A stretch of 64,000 bases of DNA from the NCBI GenBank assembly GCA_046758505.1, contig JBHIAH010000004.1, positions 43,944 through 107,943 on the forward strand, in the 5' to 3' direction. This DNA comes from Candidatus Methylomirabilales bacterium. Lineage in GTDB: Bacteria > Methylomirabilota > Methylomirabilia > Methylomirabilales > CSP1-5. Positions 48,787 to 64,000 of the stretch are shown here, piece by piece. The translations under genes and the position numbers were made by a program. The notes below the pieces were generated by a model. It did not search any database and was not told the DNA's origin. It saw nothing but the letters and a program-made list of their open reading frames with translations. Position 1 is the first letter of the stretch; every line of letters starts with the position of its first letter.

Positions 48787-49062
48787 CTACGCCCCGCCGG
48801 CGATGGCAGGGACGATCGAGACGTGGTCCCCCGGTTTCAGCGGGGTGGCGGTTCCCTGGAGGAACCGGATGTCCTCATCGTTCACATAGATATTGATGAA
48901 ACGGCGGATATCCCGCCCGTCACACAGCCGTTCTTTCAACCCCTTATACCGTGTCTCCAGGTTCTCAATGAGATCCTGAACGCAGCCCCCTTCTCCCTGC
49001 ACCTCGGCCTGCCCCTGGGTCAGGGTCCGGAGGGGTGTCGGAATCCGGACGAGGACGCTCAT
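48787..49062 (-). CDS. MoaD/CysO-like sulfur carrier protein ending IAGG-A
   Basis: [33 protein letters not shown]. Confidence 0.93.
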
Positions 49063-50410: not shown

Positions 50411-50650
50411 TCACGATTTCTCCCGCACTTCCTCGACCGTGATGCCGAGACGCGTGAGGACCGTCATGCCTCTGGCCAGGTCCTCCTCTTGCCCGTCGAA
50501 CTCCACGAGGACCTCTCCAATCGTGTCCGTGATCCGGGCCTTGCGGATGTTGGGCACCAGGTTGCACTCCTTTGAAACCCGGTGAATCACCGGCTCCTTG
50601 ATGAGATCGGGAGGATACCTTAGAGACCACCGTCGTCTCGCCACGCCCAC
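50411..50650 (-). CDS. Stand-alone NIL domain protein
   Basis: L.YP...IKEPVI......L.PNI.KA.I....G...VE..G pattern. Confidence 0.8.
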   Translation of the reverse strand: MGVARRRWSLRYPPDLIKEPVIHRVSKECNLVPNIRKARITDTIGEVLVEFDGQEEDLARGMTVLTRLGITVEEVREKS

Positions 50651-50907: not shown

Positions 50908-51147
50908 TCACTGCACCACGTCCTGCTCGATGGGGCCCACCCGGACGCCCTGCTCCTCCAGCCATCGTATGCCGCTCGCAAGCTGCTCTTCCTCTCCTTC
51001 CAGCTCGGCCATGAGCCACCCGAGCCCCTCCGTGTAATCGGCCTGACGGATGTTGAAGACGAGATCAAAGCGCTCACACGCCTGCCACAACAGCGGCGCG
51101 TCCTTGAGCTTGCCAGGAAAGCTGAGGTGTACCCGCCTCTTCGCCAC
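50908..51147 (-). CDS. Stand-alone NIL domain protein
   Basis: L.FP.....PLL......FDL.FNIRQA.....GWL..ELEG; GTG after GGAGG. Confidence 0.82.
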   Translation of the reverse strand: MAKRRVHLSFPGKLKDAPLLWQACERFDLVFNIRQADYTEGLGWLMAELEGEEEQLASGIRWLEEQGVRVGPIEQDVVQ

Positions 51148-51280
51148 CGCTTCCTCCAGCCGACACACGACCAATTTATTCTACCCGAAATTACAGCCAA
51201 CGACAACCCCGGCGCTCGGATTCGCCTCGCGCGGAATCCGGGAAAACCGCCGCGCCGTGCCTGCGGCATCCCGGAATTAT

Positions 51281-56163: not shown

Positions 56164-56997
56164 TCACCATGTCGTTCCGACAACCGTGACGGCGCCTACC
56201 AGGCTTACCACGACGCCGATGAATTGTCGCATCCCGGCCGCCGAAAACCGATTTGCCCTCCGAACCCCAAGATATACTCCCACGCCCCCTGCCAGCAGCA
56301 GCGGAAGAAAAACTCCCACGGGGAACGTCCCCGTCTGAAGGGTATATGAGCCGGTCGCGGCTGACGCCACCAGCGATCGGGCCAGCAGTGAAGAGCCCAC
56401 GACGGTGTGGGGCGGAATCCCTGTCCACATCATCAAGACGACACCGATCGTTCCCCACCCCGCCCCGAATGCCCCCGCACAGAATCCGGCAACCGCTCCG
56501 ATGCCGAAAAGGGTTTGGCGCCTGTCACGCCATTTCACGGTTTCAAAGCCGTTTTGCGACCCGTTTCCATTTTTCCTGAGCAGCGTCAGAACGCCGATGG
56601 TCACCGTAATCACACCAATCAGCACCCGCAGGGTCTGCGCCGGCAATGCCGGACTCAGAAAACTCCCCAGGAAGGCTCCTCCCACCCCTCCGAGAACCAG
56701 CGGGACGAGGGCGGCGACGCGCGATCGGTCATAGCGCCAATGGGTCAGACCCCCGAACAGGCTCAGCACGATGGAAGCTGCCAGAGACGAGTTGATCGCG
56801 ACTAACGGCTCGATCCCGATCACAATCAGCAACGGGACGCTCAACGCCCCCCAGGCCGCGGCAGAGATCCCCGTCACCCATCCCGACACGATTCCGACGA
56901 AGACAATTGCAGACATTGAAGCCGTCACCACATGTATTCTTCCCAAACGCGAGGTCAACATCATCCGGGGCGAGCCCGGTCCGTGGGGATCGGTCAC
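56164..56997 (-). CDS. TauE/SafE family membrane transporter
   Basis: About 8 TM helices, G.VSG...G and AG.FGAGWG repeat motifs. Confidence 0.8.
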   Translation of the reverse strand: MTDPHGPGSPRMMLTSRLGRIHVVTASMSAIVFVGIVSGWVTGISAAAWGALSVPLLIVIGIEPLVAINSSLAASIVLSLFGGLTHWRYDRSRVAALVPLVLGGVGGAFLGSFLSPALPAQTLRVLIGVITVTIGVLTLLRKNGNGSQNGFETVKWRDRRQTLFGIGAVAGFCAGAFGAGWGTIGVVLMMWTGIPPHTVVGSSLLARSLVASAATGSYTLQTGTFPVGVFLPLLLAGGVGVYLGVRRANRFSAAGMRQFIGVVVSLVGAVTVVGTTW

Positions 56998-57665
56998 CCC
57001 GTGGGCAAGAAAACCTCCTGCGGGCGGCGACCCCGCAGCTTGTCGATCAGCGCCCGCAGGGCCTCCTCAAGGCTCTCCCCGTACACCGTCAGTTCGGGCC
57101 GCGGTACTTGCTGGGGGTGATCGGGACGAGCCATGCACCGCTTCCCCGGTTCCTGGACCTCCCCCAGGGTTTCTTCCACCAGGAGGTCCAGGGTACTCCA
57201 GGCACACCCGACGGCCCTGAGATATCGGAACCGATGGGTCCGAATGAGACGCTCGCTTGCGGTGAGGAATGCCCCCGGAGACGTCCCGGCCGCTGTGGGC
57301 ACCTCCTCGAGGCCCTGCTCACCCTCTGGAGGAGAAGACTCCAGTGGGTATTCCTGCGTCTCCCACCGCTGAATTCCCCCTTCCAGGTTGTACACCTCGC
57401 CAAGCCCGATCGCCGCCGCCGCTTCGCAGGCGACGGCGCTCCTGATCCCTTCTGAGCAGATGAAGAGCACGGCCCCTTCTTTCAGGAACTCCCGCGGGGT
57501 GCGAAGCAGCGTCCCGAGAGGGACGAGGATCGAGCCCGGGATCCGCACCTGGGCGTACTCGTTGGGCTCCCGGACGTCAACAACCTGGGCCCCCCTCTCC
57601 ATCAAGGCCTTTGCCTCTGCAGGCTCAATCCGAGAAAAGGGTTCATCCGCCAGGGGCTCCGTCAT
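56994..57665 (-). CDS. Single-domain rhodanese with an unknown C-terminal domain
   Basis: VDVREPNEY..RIPG, ICSEGIRS, NLEGGI..W, then about 100 unassigned residues. Confidence 0.82.
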   Translation of the reverse strand: MTEPLADEPFSRIEPAEAKALMERGAQVVDVREPNEYAQVRIPGSILVPLGTLLRTPREFLKEGAVLFICSEGIRSAVACEAAAAIGLGEVYNLEGGIQRWETQEYPLESSPPEGEQGLEEVPTAAGTSPGAFLTASERLIRTHRFRYLRAVGCAWSTLDLLVEETLGEVQEPGKRCMARPDHPQQVPRPELTVYGESLEEALRALIDKLRGRRPQEVFLPTG

Positions 57666-58624: not shown

Positions 58625-59023
58625 CTATGCGACCATCACCTCCTCCTCGCTGATCTGGCCATTCGTAATTCGAAAGGCGCGAATCACCGGTGCGTCTCGC
58701 TTCTCCAGGGAAACGATGAAGTAGAGGGCCTCGGGATAGAACGCGAGCTCCACGTCGGTCTTCGAGGGATAGGCCTCGCTGTGGGTGTGGGAGTGGTAGA
58801 TCCCAATGAGATCCCACCCCTTCTGATCCAGCTCCCGCATGACCCGGAGTTGATCCCTCGGATCGAGGTAGTAGCGATACGGGCTCTTTTCGGCACTGTC
58901 GCAGCGATAGAGCTGCAGAACCACCCCCCCGGTGCCAGCCAGGAGGCCACAACACTCGTTCGGGGCCTCTGTCCGCGCGTGATCGATCATCGCCGCCGCG
59001 AACTGCTTTTCCAGCTTGAACAT
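58625..59023 (-). CDS. mec: JAMM/Mov34 (M67) metallopeptidase, Mec-like CysO-cysteine peptidase
   Basis: PNECCGLL and YHSHTHSEAYPSKTD (HxHx7Sx2D). Confidence 0.92.
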   Translation of the reverse strand: MFKLEKQFAAAMIDHARTEAPNECCGLLAGTGGVVLQLYRCDSAEKSPYRYYLDPRDQLRVMRELDQKGWDLIGIYHSHTHSEAYPSKTDVELAFYPEALYFIVSLEKRDAPVIRAFRITNGQISEEEVMVA

Positions 59024-59059: not shown

Positions 59060-60274
59060 TTACCACCAGATGTGACTATAGACATCCTCGCCGAGATCAG
59101 GCAGCTCCTTGGCCCACACGCCCAGGCTGATATACTTCCACCCCCCGTCGGCGAGCAGGCAGACGATCTTCCCCCGCTCCATCTTGTGGGCCGTCCGAAT
59201 CGCGCAGTGGAGCACGGCGCCCGACGAGACCCCCGCAAAGATCCCCTCCTTGATCGTCAGATCCCGGGTCAAGGCAAAGGCGCAGCGCGAATCGACAATG
59301 ATCTTTCCGTCCAGGAGGCTCAGATCCAGGATGGGGGGGATGAACCCTTCCTCCAAACTGCGGAGCCCCTGAACGAGATCGCCCGGATGGGGCTCTACGG
59401 CGATCACCTGCGTCTTCGGGTTCGCCTCCTTGAGCCGCCGCCCCACCCCCATGAGGGTCCCCCCGGTCCCCAGCCCGGCCACGAACAGATCCACGTCCGG
59501 CACCGCTTCGAGGATCTCCGTGCCCGTGGTCTCGTAATGCGCGCGGGGATTCGACTCGTTGCCGTACTGGTACGGCATGTACCAATCGGGGTTCTCGGCG
59601 GCGAGCCGCTTGGCCAGATCGATGGCCCCGTTCGTCCCCCGGCGCGCATCGGAGTATACGATTTCCGCACCGTACAGCTCCAGCAATTGCCGCCGCTCGA
59701 CGGTAATGTTCTCGGGGACGACCACCTTCACCCTGTACCCCTTCCGCCGACCGATCAAGGCTAGGGAAATCCCGGTATTGCCGCTGGTGGGCTCGAGGAT
59801 CGTCTTTCCAGGGGTCAGCGCTCCTCGCTCCTCCGCCTCCTCGATCATATACTTGGCGATCCGGTCCTTCAGGCTCCCCGTCGGATTGTAGAATTCGAGC
59901 TTGCAGAAGATTCGAACCGACGGCTTGGGGCTGACCCGGGGTACCTCCACCAGGGGGGTGTGTCCGATGGCGTCCACGATGTCAGCGTATGTGCCGGGGT
60001 AGCCTCCCCCCGCGACCGCTGGGAGGATGGAGATGGTATCCCCCTCCCGCACCTCCGTATCCAGGGACTCGAGGAACCGGATATCCTCATCGTTCCGATA
60101 CACGTTCACGAACCGGTGAAGCTCCTTGCCATCCAGCAGCCGATCCCACAGCCCCGGATAGGCCTTGTCCAGGCTCTCCAGGACCTCACGGACCGTCCTC
60201 CCCTCGCCGGTGATCGTCTTTGCGCCGCCGGTGTGCTTTCGAAAGATCTGGGGAACGTGCACCTGAACCTTCAT
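59060..60274 (-). CDS. CysO-like sulfur carrier fused to CysM-type cysteine synthase
   Basis: Residues 1-90 MoaD-like ending LPAVAGG; continuous into IGHTPLV, NPTGSLKDR, EPTSGNTG, GTGGT, DGGWKY. Confidence 0.92.
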   Translation of the reverse strand: MKVQVHVPQIFRKHTGGAKTITGEGRTVREVLESLDKAYPGLWDRLLDGKELHRFVNVYRNDEDIRFLESLDTEVREGDTISILPAVAGGGYPGTYADIVDAIGHTPLVEVPRVSPKPSVRIFCKLEFYNPTGSLKDRIAKYMIEEAEERGALTPGKTILEPTSGNTGISLALIGRRKGYRVKVVVPENITVERRQLLELYGAEIVYSDARRGTNGAIDLAKRLAAENPDWYMPYQYGNESNPRAHYETTGTEILEAVPDVDLFVAGLGTGGTLMGVGRRLKEANPKTQVIAVEPHPGDLVQGLRSLEEGFIPPILDLSLLDGKIIVDSRCAFALTRDLTIKEGIFAGVSSGAVLHCAIRTAHKMERGKIVCLLADGGWKYISLGVWAKELPDLGEDVYSHIWW

Positions 60275-60346: not shown

Positions 60347-60634
60347 TCACCGGGGCTTAGAGACACCCCCACCCTTTCGGACCACAATGGCCCATTCGCG
60401 ATCGGTGAACTGACGCACCTCCAGAACCTCGTTTCCCTCACTGGCCAGGCTCCGCGGCACGTCGGCCGCAGACCGGGGATTGTCCACGATGACCCGGAGG
60501 ACTTCGCCCGCCTCCAGTTGTTCCAAGGCCAGTTTGGACTTCACAAACGTGTACGGGCAGACCTCGCCCCGGAGGTTCAGTTCCTCATCGACCGTGTCTT
60601 TCTCGGACACGAAAGATCCCTCGCTTTCTCTCAT
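60347..60634 (-). CDS. TusA/YeeD family sulfur carrier
   Basis: LNLRGEVCPYT..K...L..L..GE.L.V..D. Confidence 0.9.
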   Translation of the reverse strand: MRESEGSFVSEKDTVDEELNLRGEVCPYTFVKSKLALEQLEAGEVLRVIVDNPRSAADVPRSLASEGNEVLEVRQFTDREWAIVVRKGGGVSKPR

Positions 60635-60714: not shown

Positions 60715-60978
60715 TCATGCCGAACCGCCCTTTTCAATCTCGATCTCCCACAGCGCATCCCCCACCTTGTCAACCCGAATGACCCTGTGCCCCTCGTCGG
60801 CCGCCCAGCGTGGGATATTCTCCGCAGAAAGGGGATAATCGGACACCACGATCAGGATGTCCCCCGGCTCGAGCTTCTTTATCTCCCGCTGGGCCATGAC
60901 GAGGGGATAGGGGCAGATCTCCCCACGCGTATCGAGCCGATGAACCTTCCGCTCTTGGGCCTGCCCCGGCACCGTCAT
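60715..60978 (-). CDS. TusA/YeeD family sulfur carrier
   Basis: LDTRGEICPYP; L.PGD.L...SD.P.S..NIP.W. Confidence 0.92.
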   Translation of the reverse strand: MTVPGQAQERKVHRLDTRGEICPYPLVMAQREIKKLEPGDILIVVSDYPLSAENIPRWAADEGHRVIRVDKVGDALWEIEIEKGGSA

Positions 60979-61943
60979 TACTTCTCCAGCGGAAGCTCGG
61001 GCCGATTCCCCCAGTCGATCCAGGAGCCATCGTAGTTACGGACCTTCTCGTACCCCAGCAGTCGGGCAACAAAGTAGTCGTGCGCCGCCCGGACCCCGGT
61101 CCGGCAGTAGGTCACAATCTCACGATCTCTTGTGGCGCCCGCCGCCTCAAAGAGCTTTTGGAGCTCTGCTGCGCTCTTGAAGGTCCGATCTCCAGTGTTA
61201 ATGGTATCGACCCAGTTGATCAGCACGGCCCCGGGGATGTGGCCCCCCCGCCTGATGTCGGGATCCTTCACCTTTCCCGGGTGAGTCCGCTTTCCTTCAT
61301 ATTCCATCGGAGTCCGCGCATCCACCACGCGGACCCCGGGATTCCTGAGGTTGTCCTTGATCCACTCCGCGGTGGCGATCAGCGTGGGATTCGGGCTGGC
61401 GACAAATTTTTTCGGTGCGACCGTGGTTTTCTCCGCCGTCAGGGGCCGGCCCTCTTTCATCCACCGCGTGAGGCCCCCGTTGAGCACGGCCACGTTCTTA
61501 TGCCCGAAGAACTCAAGGACAAAGAAAAGGCGCGCCGCCCAAAGCCCGCCGGTGTCGTCATAGGCAACGACCCGCGTATCGTTGTCAATCCCGAGCTTGC
61601 TGAAGAGGGCCTCCGCTTTGGCCCGATCCATGGGAAGTCCCTTCCGGTTGCTCGCGAGATCGTCGATCTCCGTCCAGTCGACGTAGACCGCTCCCGGGAT
61701 ATGCGCCTTGGCGTACTCCGCCTTCCCGGCAGGCCCTTTCGCCCGGAGATCGACCAGGCGAATGGAGGGATCGCCCAGGTGGTCTGCAATCTCCTGCGTA
61801 TCTATCAACAGCTGTGCGTTCGGATATCCCGCTTTTTTCGCCTGTTGGCCCCAACACTGTGCCCATGCCAGCCCGCCAATGGTCAAAAGCAGGACCAGCG
61901 TACCGACGACAATAGCGATCCTGCTGTACCGGATGCTACGCAT
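60978..61943 (-). CDS. Exported two-domain rhodanese
   Basis: Signal peptide ending AWA, AHIPGA, GHIPGA, TYCRTGVRA, NYDGSW; start at ATG 61943. Confidence 0.9.
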   Translation of the reverse strand: MRSIRYSRIAIVVGTLVLLLTIGGLAWAQCWGQQAKKAGYPNAQLLIDTQEIADHLGDPSIRLVDLRAKGPAGKAEYAKAHIPGAVYVDWTEIDDLASNRKGLPMDRAKAEALFSKLGIDNDTRVVAYDDTGGLWAARLFFVLEFFGHKNVAVLNGGLTRWMKEGRPLTAEKTTVAPKKFVASPNPTLIATAEWIKDNLRNPGVRVVDARTPMEYEGKRTHPGKVKDPDIRRGGHIPGAVLINWVDTINTGDRTFKSAAELQKLFEAAGATRDREIVTYCRTGVRAAHDYFVARLLGYEKVRNYDGSWIDWGNRPELPLEK

Positions 61944-62940
61944 GTCGAGCTCTCCTCTCGAAGACCATCTTCCCGAATAACACATACGCCCCGATCCATA
62001 CCCCAGCGACGATGCCTGCCGTGGCCGTCAAGCTGCTCAAGGCGAGCATGGGAACACCCGTGAGGCTGTGGCCGATGTTACATCCGCCGGCGATGCCCGC
62101 ACCGACCCCCATCAGCGCTCCCCCCCCAAACGCCTGGAGCAGCCGGACGGGGCTAGGGGCGCGCCAGGCAAATTCCTTGTGGCCGATGGCACCCAGAAAA
62201 GCCCCCAGGGGAATCCCGAGCCACATGAAGCTTGACCAATTCAACCACCGGATCTCTCCCGTGAAGAGGTATCGGAACAGGGTGGCAATGGGCTCCGTGA
62301 TCGACAACCCGTACTGCCGACCGGTGCTCGCCGATAGGACCCACGCCACGACCCCGATCAGGCCGATGATCCCGCCCGCCACGGGCCACTTCCACCCCCG
62401 CGCGTATGTGTCGATTGCACCTCGCGCGCACCACCAGGTTCCCGCCACGACCAGGACCCCGATGACAACCCAATGATTGATGCCCAAGAGCGCGCTCAGT
62501 GTCGGTTCCCTGCCGACCGGGACGATCGTCGCCTGGAGCGCCCGCTGGATCGGCCGGAGCACGCCCAAATTCGTCATGGTAACCCCGATCCCGAATCCGA
62601 TAAAAGCGAGGATTGATGCAACCATGCCCTCCCCCGACCGGTAGGAGATACCGCTCGCTCACCCGCCTGCGTTCGCCATGCCGAACCCGAAGATGAGGCC
62701 GCCTACCACGGTGGCCTGCCAGAAGAAGGGAGCCATGTTCCGCATAATCATACCGAGGTCGGCAAGTAGGTTGAGCCCGACGAGTTGGACCAGGACCGCC
62801 ACCACGTACGCCCGCAGCAGCGTGAAGTCCCGCGCCACGAGCACATCGCGAAAGGCGGTGTTCATGCAGAACCGCCCGCGCTGCAGGGCGTACCCGAACG
62901 CAAGGCCCACTGGAAAACCGAGGAGCACTGCCTTAAGCAT
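61936..62940 (-). CDS. yeeE: YeeE/YedE (TsuA) thiosulfate transporter, predicted selenoprotein (UGA at codon 94)
   Basis: Track ORFs 62659-62940 and 61936-62625 are in one frame; read-through gives GMANAGG-U-ASGISYRSGEG; also RGRFC and AGGCNIG; 334 aa. Confidence 0.88.
62629..62647 (-). promoter_or_regulatory. Bacterial SECIS-like hairpin
   Basis: CUCCU-A-CC[GGUC]GG-GGGAG starting 11 nt after the in-frame UGA at 62661-62659. Confidence 0.7.
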
Positions 62941-63666: not shown

Positions 63667-63999
63667 TCACCCGAAGACCAGAAAACGATCCGCCCGGTGA
63701 AGGATCTGGGCGTGATCGTATTGACTCCCAAAGGTGACACCCGCGATGGCGGTCTCTTTGGTCACGCCCCGGGGATCGCAGTTGGACCCGCAGAGGGTAA
63801 TGGTCGCCCCCGCCTCTTGGAGGGCGGCGAACTCCCCGGCCACCGGGTTGTCCCCGACATCGAGGATGTTGTACACCCCGTCATCCATCAGAAACAGCTC
63901 CACTTGGTGTCCCAGCCCCAAGGCGGCCCGGGCAACCCGAAGGGCGCTGACCGAGTTTTGGTGTTCCGGCGAGGTCGTGAGCAACATCCCCAGTCTCAT
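63667..63999 (-). CDS. DsrE/TusD-like sulfur relay protein
   Basis: TTSP, VELFLMDDGVY, ITLCGSNC..RG, GSQY, DRFLVFG. Confidence 0.88.
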   Translation of the reverse strand: MRLGMLLTTSPEHQNSVSALRVARAALGLGHQVELFLMDDGVYNILDVGDNPVAGEFAALQEAGATITLCGSNCDPRGVTKETAIAGVTFGSQYDHAQILHRADRFLVFG

Positions 64000-64000
64000 G

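What the first reader, a model, noticed from the sequence alone, without database searches (positions are those of the whole stretch)
59060..60274. CysO-CysM polyprotein with a buried di-glycine, next to the protease that could release it
Seen: a complete MoaD/CysO domain ending LPAVAGG (G89-G90) runs without a stop into a CysM-type synthase (GG|GYPGTYADIVDAIGHTPLV). No ATG follows at SD distance after the junction. The next gene is a JAMM peptidase. Known: in the mycobacterial Mec-CysO-CysM pathway CysO needs a free C-terminal Gly-Gly for thiocarboxylation and Mec cleaves after Gly-Gly. Inference: the fusion is a ubiquitin-precursor-like polyprotein matured by the adjacent JAMM enzyme, giving 1:1 carrier:enzyme synthesis and a proteolytic switch. 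Alternatively the tethered domain is regulatory.
Basis: partly seen in the sequence, partly recalled or inferred. Interest (0 to 1): 0.85.

Follow-up and report, generated by a model that had tools for sequence, protein, structure and literature searches.

The report
Sulfur carrier fused to cysteine synthase
One gene joins a small ubiquitin-like sulfur carrier to the cysteine-making enzyme it serves, burying the carrier's working end, so the neighbouring protease likely has to cut them apart, a new case of a trick already shown for molybdenum-cofactor enzymes.

Summary
The fusion is real: 59060-60274 (-) encodes a 404-aa CysO-CysM protein with an internal Gly-Gly and no internal start. The host is a Methylomirabilota (NC10)-type bacterium. 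Such fusions recur: 4 of 11 assembled junctions in the genus (at least two origins), Gaiella-type Actinomycetota and Chloroflexota. The Gly-Gly is kept in 68 of 69 fused proteins while linkers vary. All 7 split genus-mates also carry a tail after the Gly-Gly, as do 8 of 9 ThiS-family domains of this genome, which has one Mec-type JAMM. The fusion is therefore likely a precursor that JAMM cuts after G90 (10.2 + 34.4 kDa); cleavage is inferred, not shown. Adjacency to JAMM proves little: 120 of 128 split loci have it too, because Mec releases cysteine anyway. A selected 'switch' or 1:1 purpose is unsupported. JAMM cleavage of MoaD-MoaE fusions is published and was predicted generally in 2006; ten literature searches found no CysO-CysM fusion. 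The scan noted carrier-E1 and carrier-cupin fusions on other DNA; no listed note on other DNA names this fusion. Verdict: new variant of a known kind.

The parts
59060..60274 (-). cysO-cysM fusion gene, 404 aa, 44.5 kDa
60005..60274 (-). CysO/MoaD-type beta-grasp sulfur-carrier domain, residues 1-90, 10.2 kDa if released
   Evidence: PF02597; end-to-end match to 4n6e_B and 3dwg_C; mass
60002..60010 (-). G89-G90|G91, predicted scissile bond after G90; the codons GGG GGA GGC contain GGAGG, which in split relatives precedes the cysM TTG/GTG start
   Evidence: residues 87-92 are the only stretch with pLDDT under 50 in the model
59060..60004 (-). CysM-type (carrier-dependent) cysteine synthase domain, residues 91-404, 34.4 kDa; PLP lysine K136, R305 aligned with R220 of M. 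tuberculosis CysM, C-terminal lid ending SHIWW
   Evidence: best PDB matches by sequence and by fold are M. tuberculosis CysM
58625..59023 (-). Mec-type JAMM metallopeptidase, 132 aa, the only Mec-type JAMM found in the genome
   Evidence: PF14464; motif; single hit in own genome
57678..58520 (-). two-domain rhodanese/sulfurtransferase, likely persulfide donor for the rhodanese-less E1
   Evidence: PF00581 x2; follows JAMM in all genus loci with enough DNA; role inferred
56994..57665 (-). rhodanese-domain protein with C-terminal extension
60347..60634 (-). TusA-family sulfur relay protein
60715..60978 (-). second TusA-family protein
60978..61985 (-). second two-domain rhodanese/sulfurtransferase
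63946..64000 (-). 55-nt overlap of the window's contig end with contig C6, which carries rrf2-cysK-(Ubl-GG|MoeB fusion) on the same strand, so the E1 enzyme lies in the same gene cluster just outside the window
48787..49062 (-). second MoaD-type carrier, ending GG|A, behind a ThrC-family PLP enzyme; another likely JAMM substrate

Best explanation
The gene encodes a CysO sulfur carrier fused through its Gly-Gly to a CysM cysteine synthase, and this precursor is likely cut after G90 by the neighbouring Mec-type JAMM peptidase to give a free 10.2-kDa carrier and a 34.4-kDa synthase. Inferred cycle, by homology to the M. tuberculosis pathway: the MoeB-type E1 of the same cluster adenylates the freed CysO, rhodanese/TusA proteins supply sulfur to form the thiocarboxylate, CysM joins it to O-phosphoserine, and the same JAMM releases cysteine and regenerates CysO. 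The fusion likely arose by small deletions between two coupled genes and is tolerated because this lineage already makes its carriers with a tail that must be trimmed; it is a tail that grew into a whole enzyme, not a selected switch. Shown: sequence, domains, conservation, neighbourhood, repeated origin. Inferred: cleavage, the enzyme responsible, substrate and sulfur source.
For: 1) Chemistry: CysO works through a thiocarboxylate on its last glycine (PMC3227635), impossible while G90 is in a peptide bond. 2) GG kept in 68 of 69 fused proteins, 15 clusters at 80% (window protein included), with five different GG codon pairs and linkers of 12-31 aa in 13 fused loci. 3) All 7 split genus-mates have a tail after GG, 5 of them starting with Gly as here, beside JAMM orthologues 77-82% identical; 89 of 128 split loci in the genome surveys are tailed. 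4) 8 of 9 ThiS-family domains in this genome have a buried GG, including MoaD before moaE, ThiS before thiG and the carrier before ttuA; one Mec-type JAMM exists. 5) JAMM with intact motif lies near the fusion in 13 of 13 fused genomes. 6) In three Gaiella-type fused loci the tethered CysO is the only carrier found in about 6 kb upstream. 7) CysO of this genome is as constrained as split CysO (dN/dS 0.07-0.15 in both). 8) The junction is the only stretch under pLDDT 50 in a model of mean 89.3. 9) Precedent: MoaX is cut at G82|S83 and needs it; DrJAMM and HvJAMM1 cut MoaD/SAMP1-MoaE linear fusions after the Gly. 10) At least two origins in the genus (AU p 1.8e-84 against one fused clade) and at least 7 state changes forced on a 95-row CysM tree.
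Against: No expression, proteomic or biochemical data. JAMM adjacency does not discriminate (120 of 128 split loci). Recent fusions would keep GG for a while without selection. In the sister fusion clade (G005, G007, G011) CysO shows higher dN/dS (0.31-0.62 on 4-9 changes, against 0.07 for the closest split pair), compatible with relaxed use. 18 of 30 NC10 cysM loci have no cysO within 1.5 kb, so CysM of this order can rely on another carrier. This linker is among the shortest seen (about two residues before the position of M1 of M. tuberculosis CysM), so access for JAMM is unproven; the low pLDDT may partly reflect gaps in the alignment. Four other JAB-like frames exist in the genome. Without two extra split loci the AU test was borderline (p 0.055).
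Confidence: 0.77

Rival explanations
1. The fusion is not cut, or cutting does not matter: the tethered CysO is vestigial or regulatory, and CysM uses another carrier (the Ubl released from the Ubl-MoeB fusion, or the GG|A carrier at 48787-49062) or free sulfide.
For: 18 of 30 NC10 cysM loci lack a nearby cysO; in 5 larger loci without cysO the cluster's carrier is the Ubl fused to MoeB; raised dN/dS of CysO in the sister fusion clade; very short linker here.
Against: GG and the whole PAxAGG end are kept in 68 of 69 fused proteins; CysO here is under normal constraint; Gaiella-type fused loci show no second carrier; the alternative carriers would need the same JAMM cut, and a JAMM that trims GG|G tails in genus-mates should see this bond too.
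Confidence: 0.12
2. The precursor is cut, but by another peptidase (one of the other JAB-like proteins or a general protease), and the neighbouring JAMM only releases cysteine from CysO-Cys.
For: Other JAB-like frames on contigs C9, C31, C36 and C47; the MoaX protease was unidentified in PMC4326299.
Against: None of the others scores with a profile of 46 Mec-type JAMMs; in Deinococcus and Haloferax the JAMM itself cuts linear fusions; fused loci of three phyla share only the Mec-type JAMM among the genes I probed.
Confidence: 0.06
3. The first reader's stronger version, compatible with cleavage: the fusion was selected to fix 1:1 synthesis and to give a regulated proteolytic switch on cysteine synthesis.
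For: Repeated origins could reflect benefit; some fused clades span several genomes; uncut MoaX persisted in cells, read by its authors as slow or regulated cleavage; HvJAMM1/SAMP1 regulate MoaE reversibly.
Against: Fusions are a minority everywhere sampled: 4 of 47, 6 of 78 and 1 of 67 matching genomes, 3 of 80 and 1 of 80 loci; split genus-mates already overlap cysO tail and cysM start; JAMM is in the same cluster and is needed for every turnover, so it gives no extra control point; no regulator of JAMM was found.
Confidence: 0.12
4. The fusion is an assembly error or a one-off stop-loss in a dying gene.
For: Most relatives are split; the covering runs may be the source of this assembly.
Against: Contigs at depth 19-32 in 4 runs show no variant; the junction differs from split kin by a deletion of about 49 nt, not one base; both domains are intact and constrained; 12 other genomes carry fusions.
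Confidence: 0.02

Closest known systems
M. tuberculosis Mec+ (Rv1334) / CysO (Rv1335) / CysM (Rv1336) / MoeZR protein-thiocarboxylate cysteine pathway
   Same: CysO and CysM are the best PDB matches by sequence and fold; R220-equivalent and C-terminal lid kept; JAMM, E1 and sulfurtransferases in the cluster.
   Different: CysO and CysM are one chain; JAMM lies downstream; the E1 has no rhodanese domain and carries its own N-terminal Ubl-GG; the cluster also holds cysK, sulfate/sulfite reduction and YeeE/TusA/DsrE genes.
MoaD-MoaE linear fusions: MoaX (PMC4326299), Deinococcus DR2607 cut by DrJAMM (PMC8832034), SAMP1-MoaE cut by HvJAMM1 (PMC4443979)
   Same: Sulfur carrier fused through its GG to the enzyme it serves; inactive until cut after the last Gly; JAMM as the cutter in two of the three.
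   Different: The partner is a PLP cysteine synthase, and the presumed maturase is also a catalytic step of the same pathway; cleavage here is untested.
Tailed sulfur-carrier precursors trimmed by cluster JAMMs: QbsE/QbsD and CxnE/CxnF (as described or proposed in PMC5925218); HcyS/HcyD (recalled, not read)
   Same: GG hidden by a C-terminal extension next to a JAMM gene; the split relatives here are of this type.
   Different: The extension is a complete 314-aa enzyme.
Operon type 4c/4d and the prediction of JAB release of fused ThiS/MoaD in Iyer, Burroughs and Aravind 2006 (PMC1779556)
   Same: ThiS/MoaD + E1 + JAB + cysteine synthase neighbourhood; section 16 proposes that JAB cleaves ThiS/MoaD off fused partners to free the C-terminus.
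   Different: The passages seen list fusions to ThiG, MoaE, ThiF, sulfite reductase and AOR, none to cysteine synthase (12 of 24 places shown).

Membership tests
CysO-dependent cysteine synthase system (CysO/CysM/Mec/MoeZ) | Beta-grasp carrier of the CysO/MoaD type with a PAxAGG end | tested here: met
   PF02597 and end-to-end alignment with 3dwg_C
CysO-dependent cysteine synthase system (CysO/CysM/Mec/MoeZ) | Gly-Gly free at the C-terminus of the primary product | tested here: not met
   G90 continues into CysM; met only after the inferred cleavage
CysO-dependent cysteine synthase system (CysO/CysM/Mec/MoeZ) | Synthase closer to M. tuberculosis CysM than to CysK or enteric CysM, with PLP Lys, R220 equivalent and C-terminal lid | tested here: met
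   311 bits to 3dki against 258 for the next family; Foldseek top hit 3dwg_A; K136, R305; below the cut-offs of cysK and cysM equivalogs. The role of R220 in phosphoserine binding is recalled.
CysO-dependent cysteine synthase system (CysO/CysM/Mec/MoeZ) | Mec-type JAMM with intact metal site, and an E1 plus sulfurtransferase, encoded | tested here: met
CysO-dependent cysteine synthase system (CysO/CysM/Mec/MoeZ) | Cysteine formed from O-phosphoserine and CysO-thiocarboxylate | not testable with these tools
   serA is present; no enzyme assay possible
JAMM-matured linear Ubl fusions (MoaD-MoaE/MoaX type) | Complete carrier joined in frame through a conserved GG to its partner enzyme, no internal start | tested here: met
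JAMM-matured linear Ubl fusions (MoaD-MoaE/MoaX type) | Partner is MoaE | tested here: not met
   Partner is PALP-family CysM; the genome's moaD and moaE are separate genes. It works like this kind but is not MoaX.
JAMM-matured linear Ubl fusions (MoaD-MoaE/MoaX type) | Scissile bond exposed | tested here: inconclusive
   pLDDT under 50 at residues 87-92 only; no complex model could be run
JAMM-matured linear Ubl fusions (MoaD-MoaE/MoaX type) | JAMM-dependent cleavage after the last Gly, required for activity | not testable with these tools
   needs biochemistry or proteomics

The most novel reading that the evidence does not exclude
In this lineage one JAMM peptidase is the general maturase of nearly all sulfur carriers (CysO, MoaD, ThiS, TtuB-like, the homocysteine-branch carrier, and the Ubl domains fused to MoeB, a cupin and CysM). 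The cell makes its carriers as ubiquitin-style pro-proteins, the stop codon after Gly-Gly is no longer under selection, and carrier-enzyme polyproteins arise again and again. One protease would then gate cysteine, molybdenum cofactor, thiamine and thio-tRNA synthesis together, a bacterial parallel of ubiquitin precursor processing.
Probability: 0.4. Interest if true: 0.6.

Novelty: new variant of a known kind. Interest (0 to 1): 0.4.

Why it matters
It extends JAMM-matured carrier-enzyme polyproteins from molybdopterin synthase to cysteine synthase and gives a natural series (free GG, short tail, long tail, whole enzyme) within one genus for testing how ubiquitin-like precursor fusions arise. 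It also matters for annotation: these proteins are labelled simply 'cysteine synthase B', and a buried GG should not be read as a dead carrier. The chemistry itself is known, so a specialist would find it neat and predictable rather than startling.

Tried and rejected
Expression: no RNA holder was listed for the stretch, which says nothing either way. Complex of JAMM with the fusion: no prediction was obtained because the queue was full, so binding geometry is untested. Cluster-member names for fused homologues could not be looked up, so the taxa of most fused proteins are unknown; taxa come from named loci and the Atlas. The profile search of 50% representatives gave few clean fusions among the best 150 (P0228, P0301; P0251 and P0271 look frameshifted). 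The first genus tree was discarded because missing genes were filled with wrong paralogue hits; replace it. Promoter and terminator scans gave chance-level counts (1 vs 1.5, 6 vs 5.1). Internal translation start in this gene: rejected; not excluded for the G005/G007/G011 fusion, which keeps the old GTG behind a G-run. Single-base assembly error: rejected. JAMM co-occurrence as a test: rejected as non-discriminating. Literature: 10 searches listed no paper on a CysO-CysM fusion; one search was uninformative (one common term sufficed). The library lacks most subscription papers, and supplementary tables of PMC1779556 and PMC4443979 were not opened and could list such fusions. A bioRxiv Thi4 paper and PMC2948915 held nothing on this fusion in the passages shown.

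Full report
Observation. The minus-strand frame 60274-59060 is open for 404 codons and holds a ThiS-family domain at 6-90 and a PALP domain at 101-375. Residues 1-90 align end to end with M. tuberculosis CysO (3dwg_C) and 4n6e_B, both ending in the same PAVAGG, so G89-G90 is the normal carrier terminus. The rest matches M. tuberculosis CysM best by sequence (311 bits; next family 258) and by fold (3dwg_A first). K136 and R305 are present; R305 aligns with R220 of CysM (its role in phosphoserine binding is recalled). No start codon with a ribosome-binding motif lies in the junction. Contigs of 4 runs cover the junction without differences, but they are one study and may be the source of the assembly. 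Named close hits place the host in Methylomirabilota/NC10.

Neighbourhood. A JAMM gene follows after 36 nt, then two rhodanese genes, tauE, sulfite reductase, a HemD-like gene, cysH and sat; upstream lie two tusA, a rhodanese, yeeE and dsrE/H genes. The window ends at its contig end, which overlaps contig C6 by 55 nt; C6 carries rrf2, cysK and a Ubl-GG|MoeB fusion on the same strand. The same order is seen on single contigs in genus-mates, so E1, carrier, synthase and JAMM form one cluster. serA and cysE are both in the genome.

How common is the fusion. Of 14 genomes of the genus, 11 have the junction assembled: 4 fused (G000, G005, G007, G011) and 7 split. In the phylum 4 of 47 matching genomes, of 251 searched, are fused. 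In the class of a Gaiella genome (Thermoleophilia, name recalled) 6 of 78 matching genomes of 151 give a stop-free full-length match; in the phylum of a Dehalococcoidia genome 1 of 67 of 251; only the best 30 loci of each were read. A GTDB scan that covered 3 of 64 parts gave 3 fused, 75 split and 2 unclassified among the best 80 of 598 loci; a metagenome scan gave 1 fused and 79 split of 80. Protein searches gave 69 further ThiS+PALP proteins, many near-identical, in 15 clusters at 80% with the window protein; 68 keep PAxAGG followed by GxTP, the exception looking frameshifted. The ESM Atlas holds a 69-member cluster with this architecture, so it is visible in public data.

How it arose. In split genus-mates the GG codons (GGG GGA GG) sit 5-6 nt before the TTG or GTG that starts cysM in another frame, and the cysO frame runs on into a short tail. 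The G005/G007/G011 junction is one base shorter than that of most split kin, which puts cysM in frame and keeps its old N-terminal extension as linker. This genome keeps the split-type GGAGGC but lacks about 49 nt, including the start codon. A nine-gene tree groups this genome with split members (98/99) with a borderline AU test (p 0.055); adding two split metagenome loci that are sister to the other fusion rejects a single fused clade (p 1.8e-84). On a 95-row CysM tree the fused label needs 13 changes, at least 7 forced by well-supported branches; rows were chosen by score and included 9 fused proteins added on purpose, and single-protein fusions could be sequencing errors.

Why cleavage is likely. 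CysO acts through a thiocarboxylate on its last glycine, and Mec hydrolyses CysO-cysteine after that glycine (PMC3227635, passages). All 7 split genus-mates carry a tail after GG, five beginning with Gly as here, next to JAMMs 77-82% identical to this one. Across the genome surveys 89 of 128 split loci are tailed, with 13 different first residues (9 loci unclassified, one duplicate dropped); in the metagenome set only 17 of 79. In this genome 8 of 9 ThiS-family domains have a buried GG, among them MoaD before moaE, ThiS before thiG and a carrier before ttuA. A profile of 46 Mec-type JAMMs finds only the neighbouring gene, though four other JAB-like frames exist. All 13 fused genomes examined have a JAMM with intact motif nearby, 12 within 60 nt. 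The AlphaFold model (mean pLDDT 89.3) is under 50 only at residues 87-92. CysO of this genome shows the same constraint as split CysO.

What speaks against, or limits, this. There are no expression or biochemical data. JAMM is near 120 of 128 split loci as well, so adjacency says nothing special. CysO in the sister fusion clade has raised dN/dS on few changes. 18 of 30 NC10 cysM loci have no cysO close by, so another carrier can serve CysM in this order. The linker here is very short. A selected switch or 1:1 purpose has no support: fusions are a scattered minority and the split genes are already coupled.

Comparison with what is known. MoaX is cut at G82|S83 and needs the cut (PMC4326299, abstract and Discussion). 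DrJAMM cuts MoaD-MoaE (PMC8832034, passages; the 2018 primary paper seen only as a reference). HvJAMM1 cuts SAMP1-MoaE precisely after the Gly in vivo and in vitro (PMC4443979, passages). QbsD/QbsE and CxnF/CxnE tail trimming is described or proposed in PMC5925218 (passages). Iyer et al. 2006 describe the operon type and predict that JAB releases fused ThiS/MoaD (PMC1779556, passages and section 16). MoaD-MoeB fusions in NC10 are noted in PMC11237513 (passages). Ten searches listed no description of a CysO-CysM fusion; subscription papers and unopened supplements may hold one.

Verdict. Real, recurrent and most likely a JAMM-matured precursor (0.77). It works like MoaD-MoaE fusions but is not one; it belongs to the CysO/CysM system except that its GG is not free as translated. 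New variant of a known kind, interest 0.4. The bolder reading, one JAMM as general maturase of a cell's sulfur carriers, is at about 0.4 and would deserve 0.6.

Noticed in passing
window 61936-62940 (-), TGA at 62659-62661: yeeE is one frame broken by an in-frame TGA at the position of a Cys in relatives (GG*TTG in 5 of 7 loci, GGC in 2): likely selenocysteine. Already noted by the scan.
   Followed up: partly
G000:C6:115-1203 (L049), just beyond the window end: MoeB-type E1 with an N-terminal Ubl joined through IAGG|AIPF; kept with GG in most NC10 loci read, and the only carrier found in five larger loci that lack cysO.
   Followed up: partly
G000:C2:115801 onward (L194:2787-3359): MoaD-like domain fused through GG to a cupin; a third carrier fusion in the same genome.
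   Followed up: partly
G000:C33:6980, C37:15574, C11:21113, C108:3673; window 48787-49062: MoaD, ThiS, a ttuA-linked carrier and two more Ubls all end in GG plus 1-16 extra residues.
   Followed up: partly
L035-L041 and L202-L203, cysO/cysM junction: The Gly-Gly codons of cysO double as the GGAGG ribosome-binding motif for a TTG or GTG start of cysM 5-6 nt later.
   Followed up: yes
protein P0305; ESM Atlas cluster of 51 members: A separate fusion type: short ThiS domain ending GGG joined to a CysK-type synthase, commonest in Margulisiibacteriota.
   Followed up: no
proteins P0189 and P0190: MoaD-type domain fused through GG to a cytochrome P450 (Labedaea), and a ThrC-family enzyme with a C-terminal carrier ending in free GG (the latter may be a frameshifted read).
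   Followed up: no
L044, L045, L046, L050 (cysM-adjacent JAMM): In several other families of the order the JAMM next to cysM is only 30-35% identical to this one, against 60-82% elsewhere, and these loci lack cysO.
   Followed up: no
window 50411-50650 and 50908-51174 (-): Two stand-alone NIL-domain genes between sat and the ThrC-family gene.
   Followed up: no
G000:C31:23880, C47:11837, C9:43017: Further JAB-like frames with HSH motifs that do not match the Mec-type profile.
   Followed up: no
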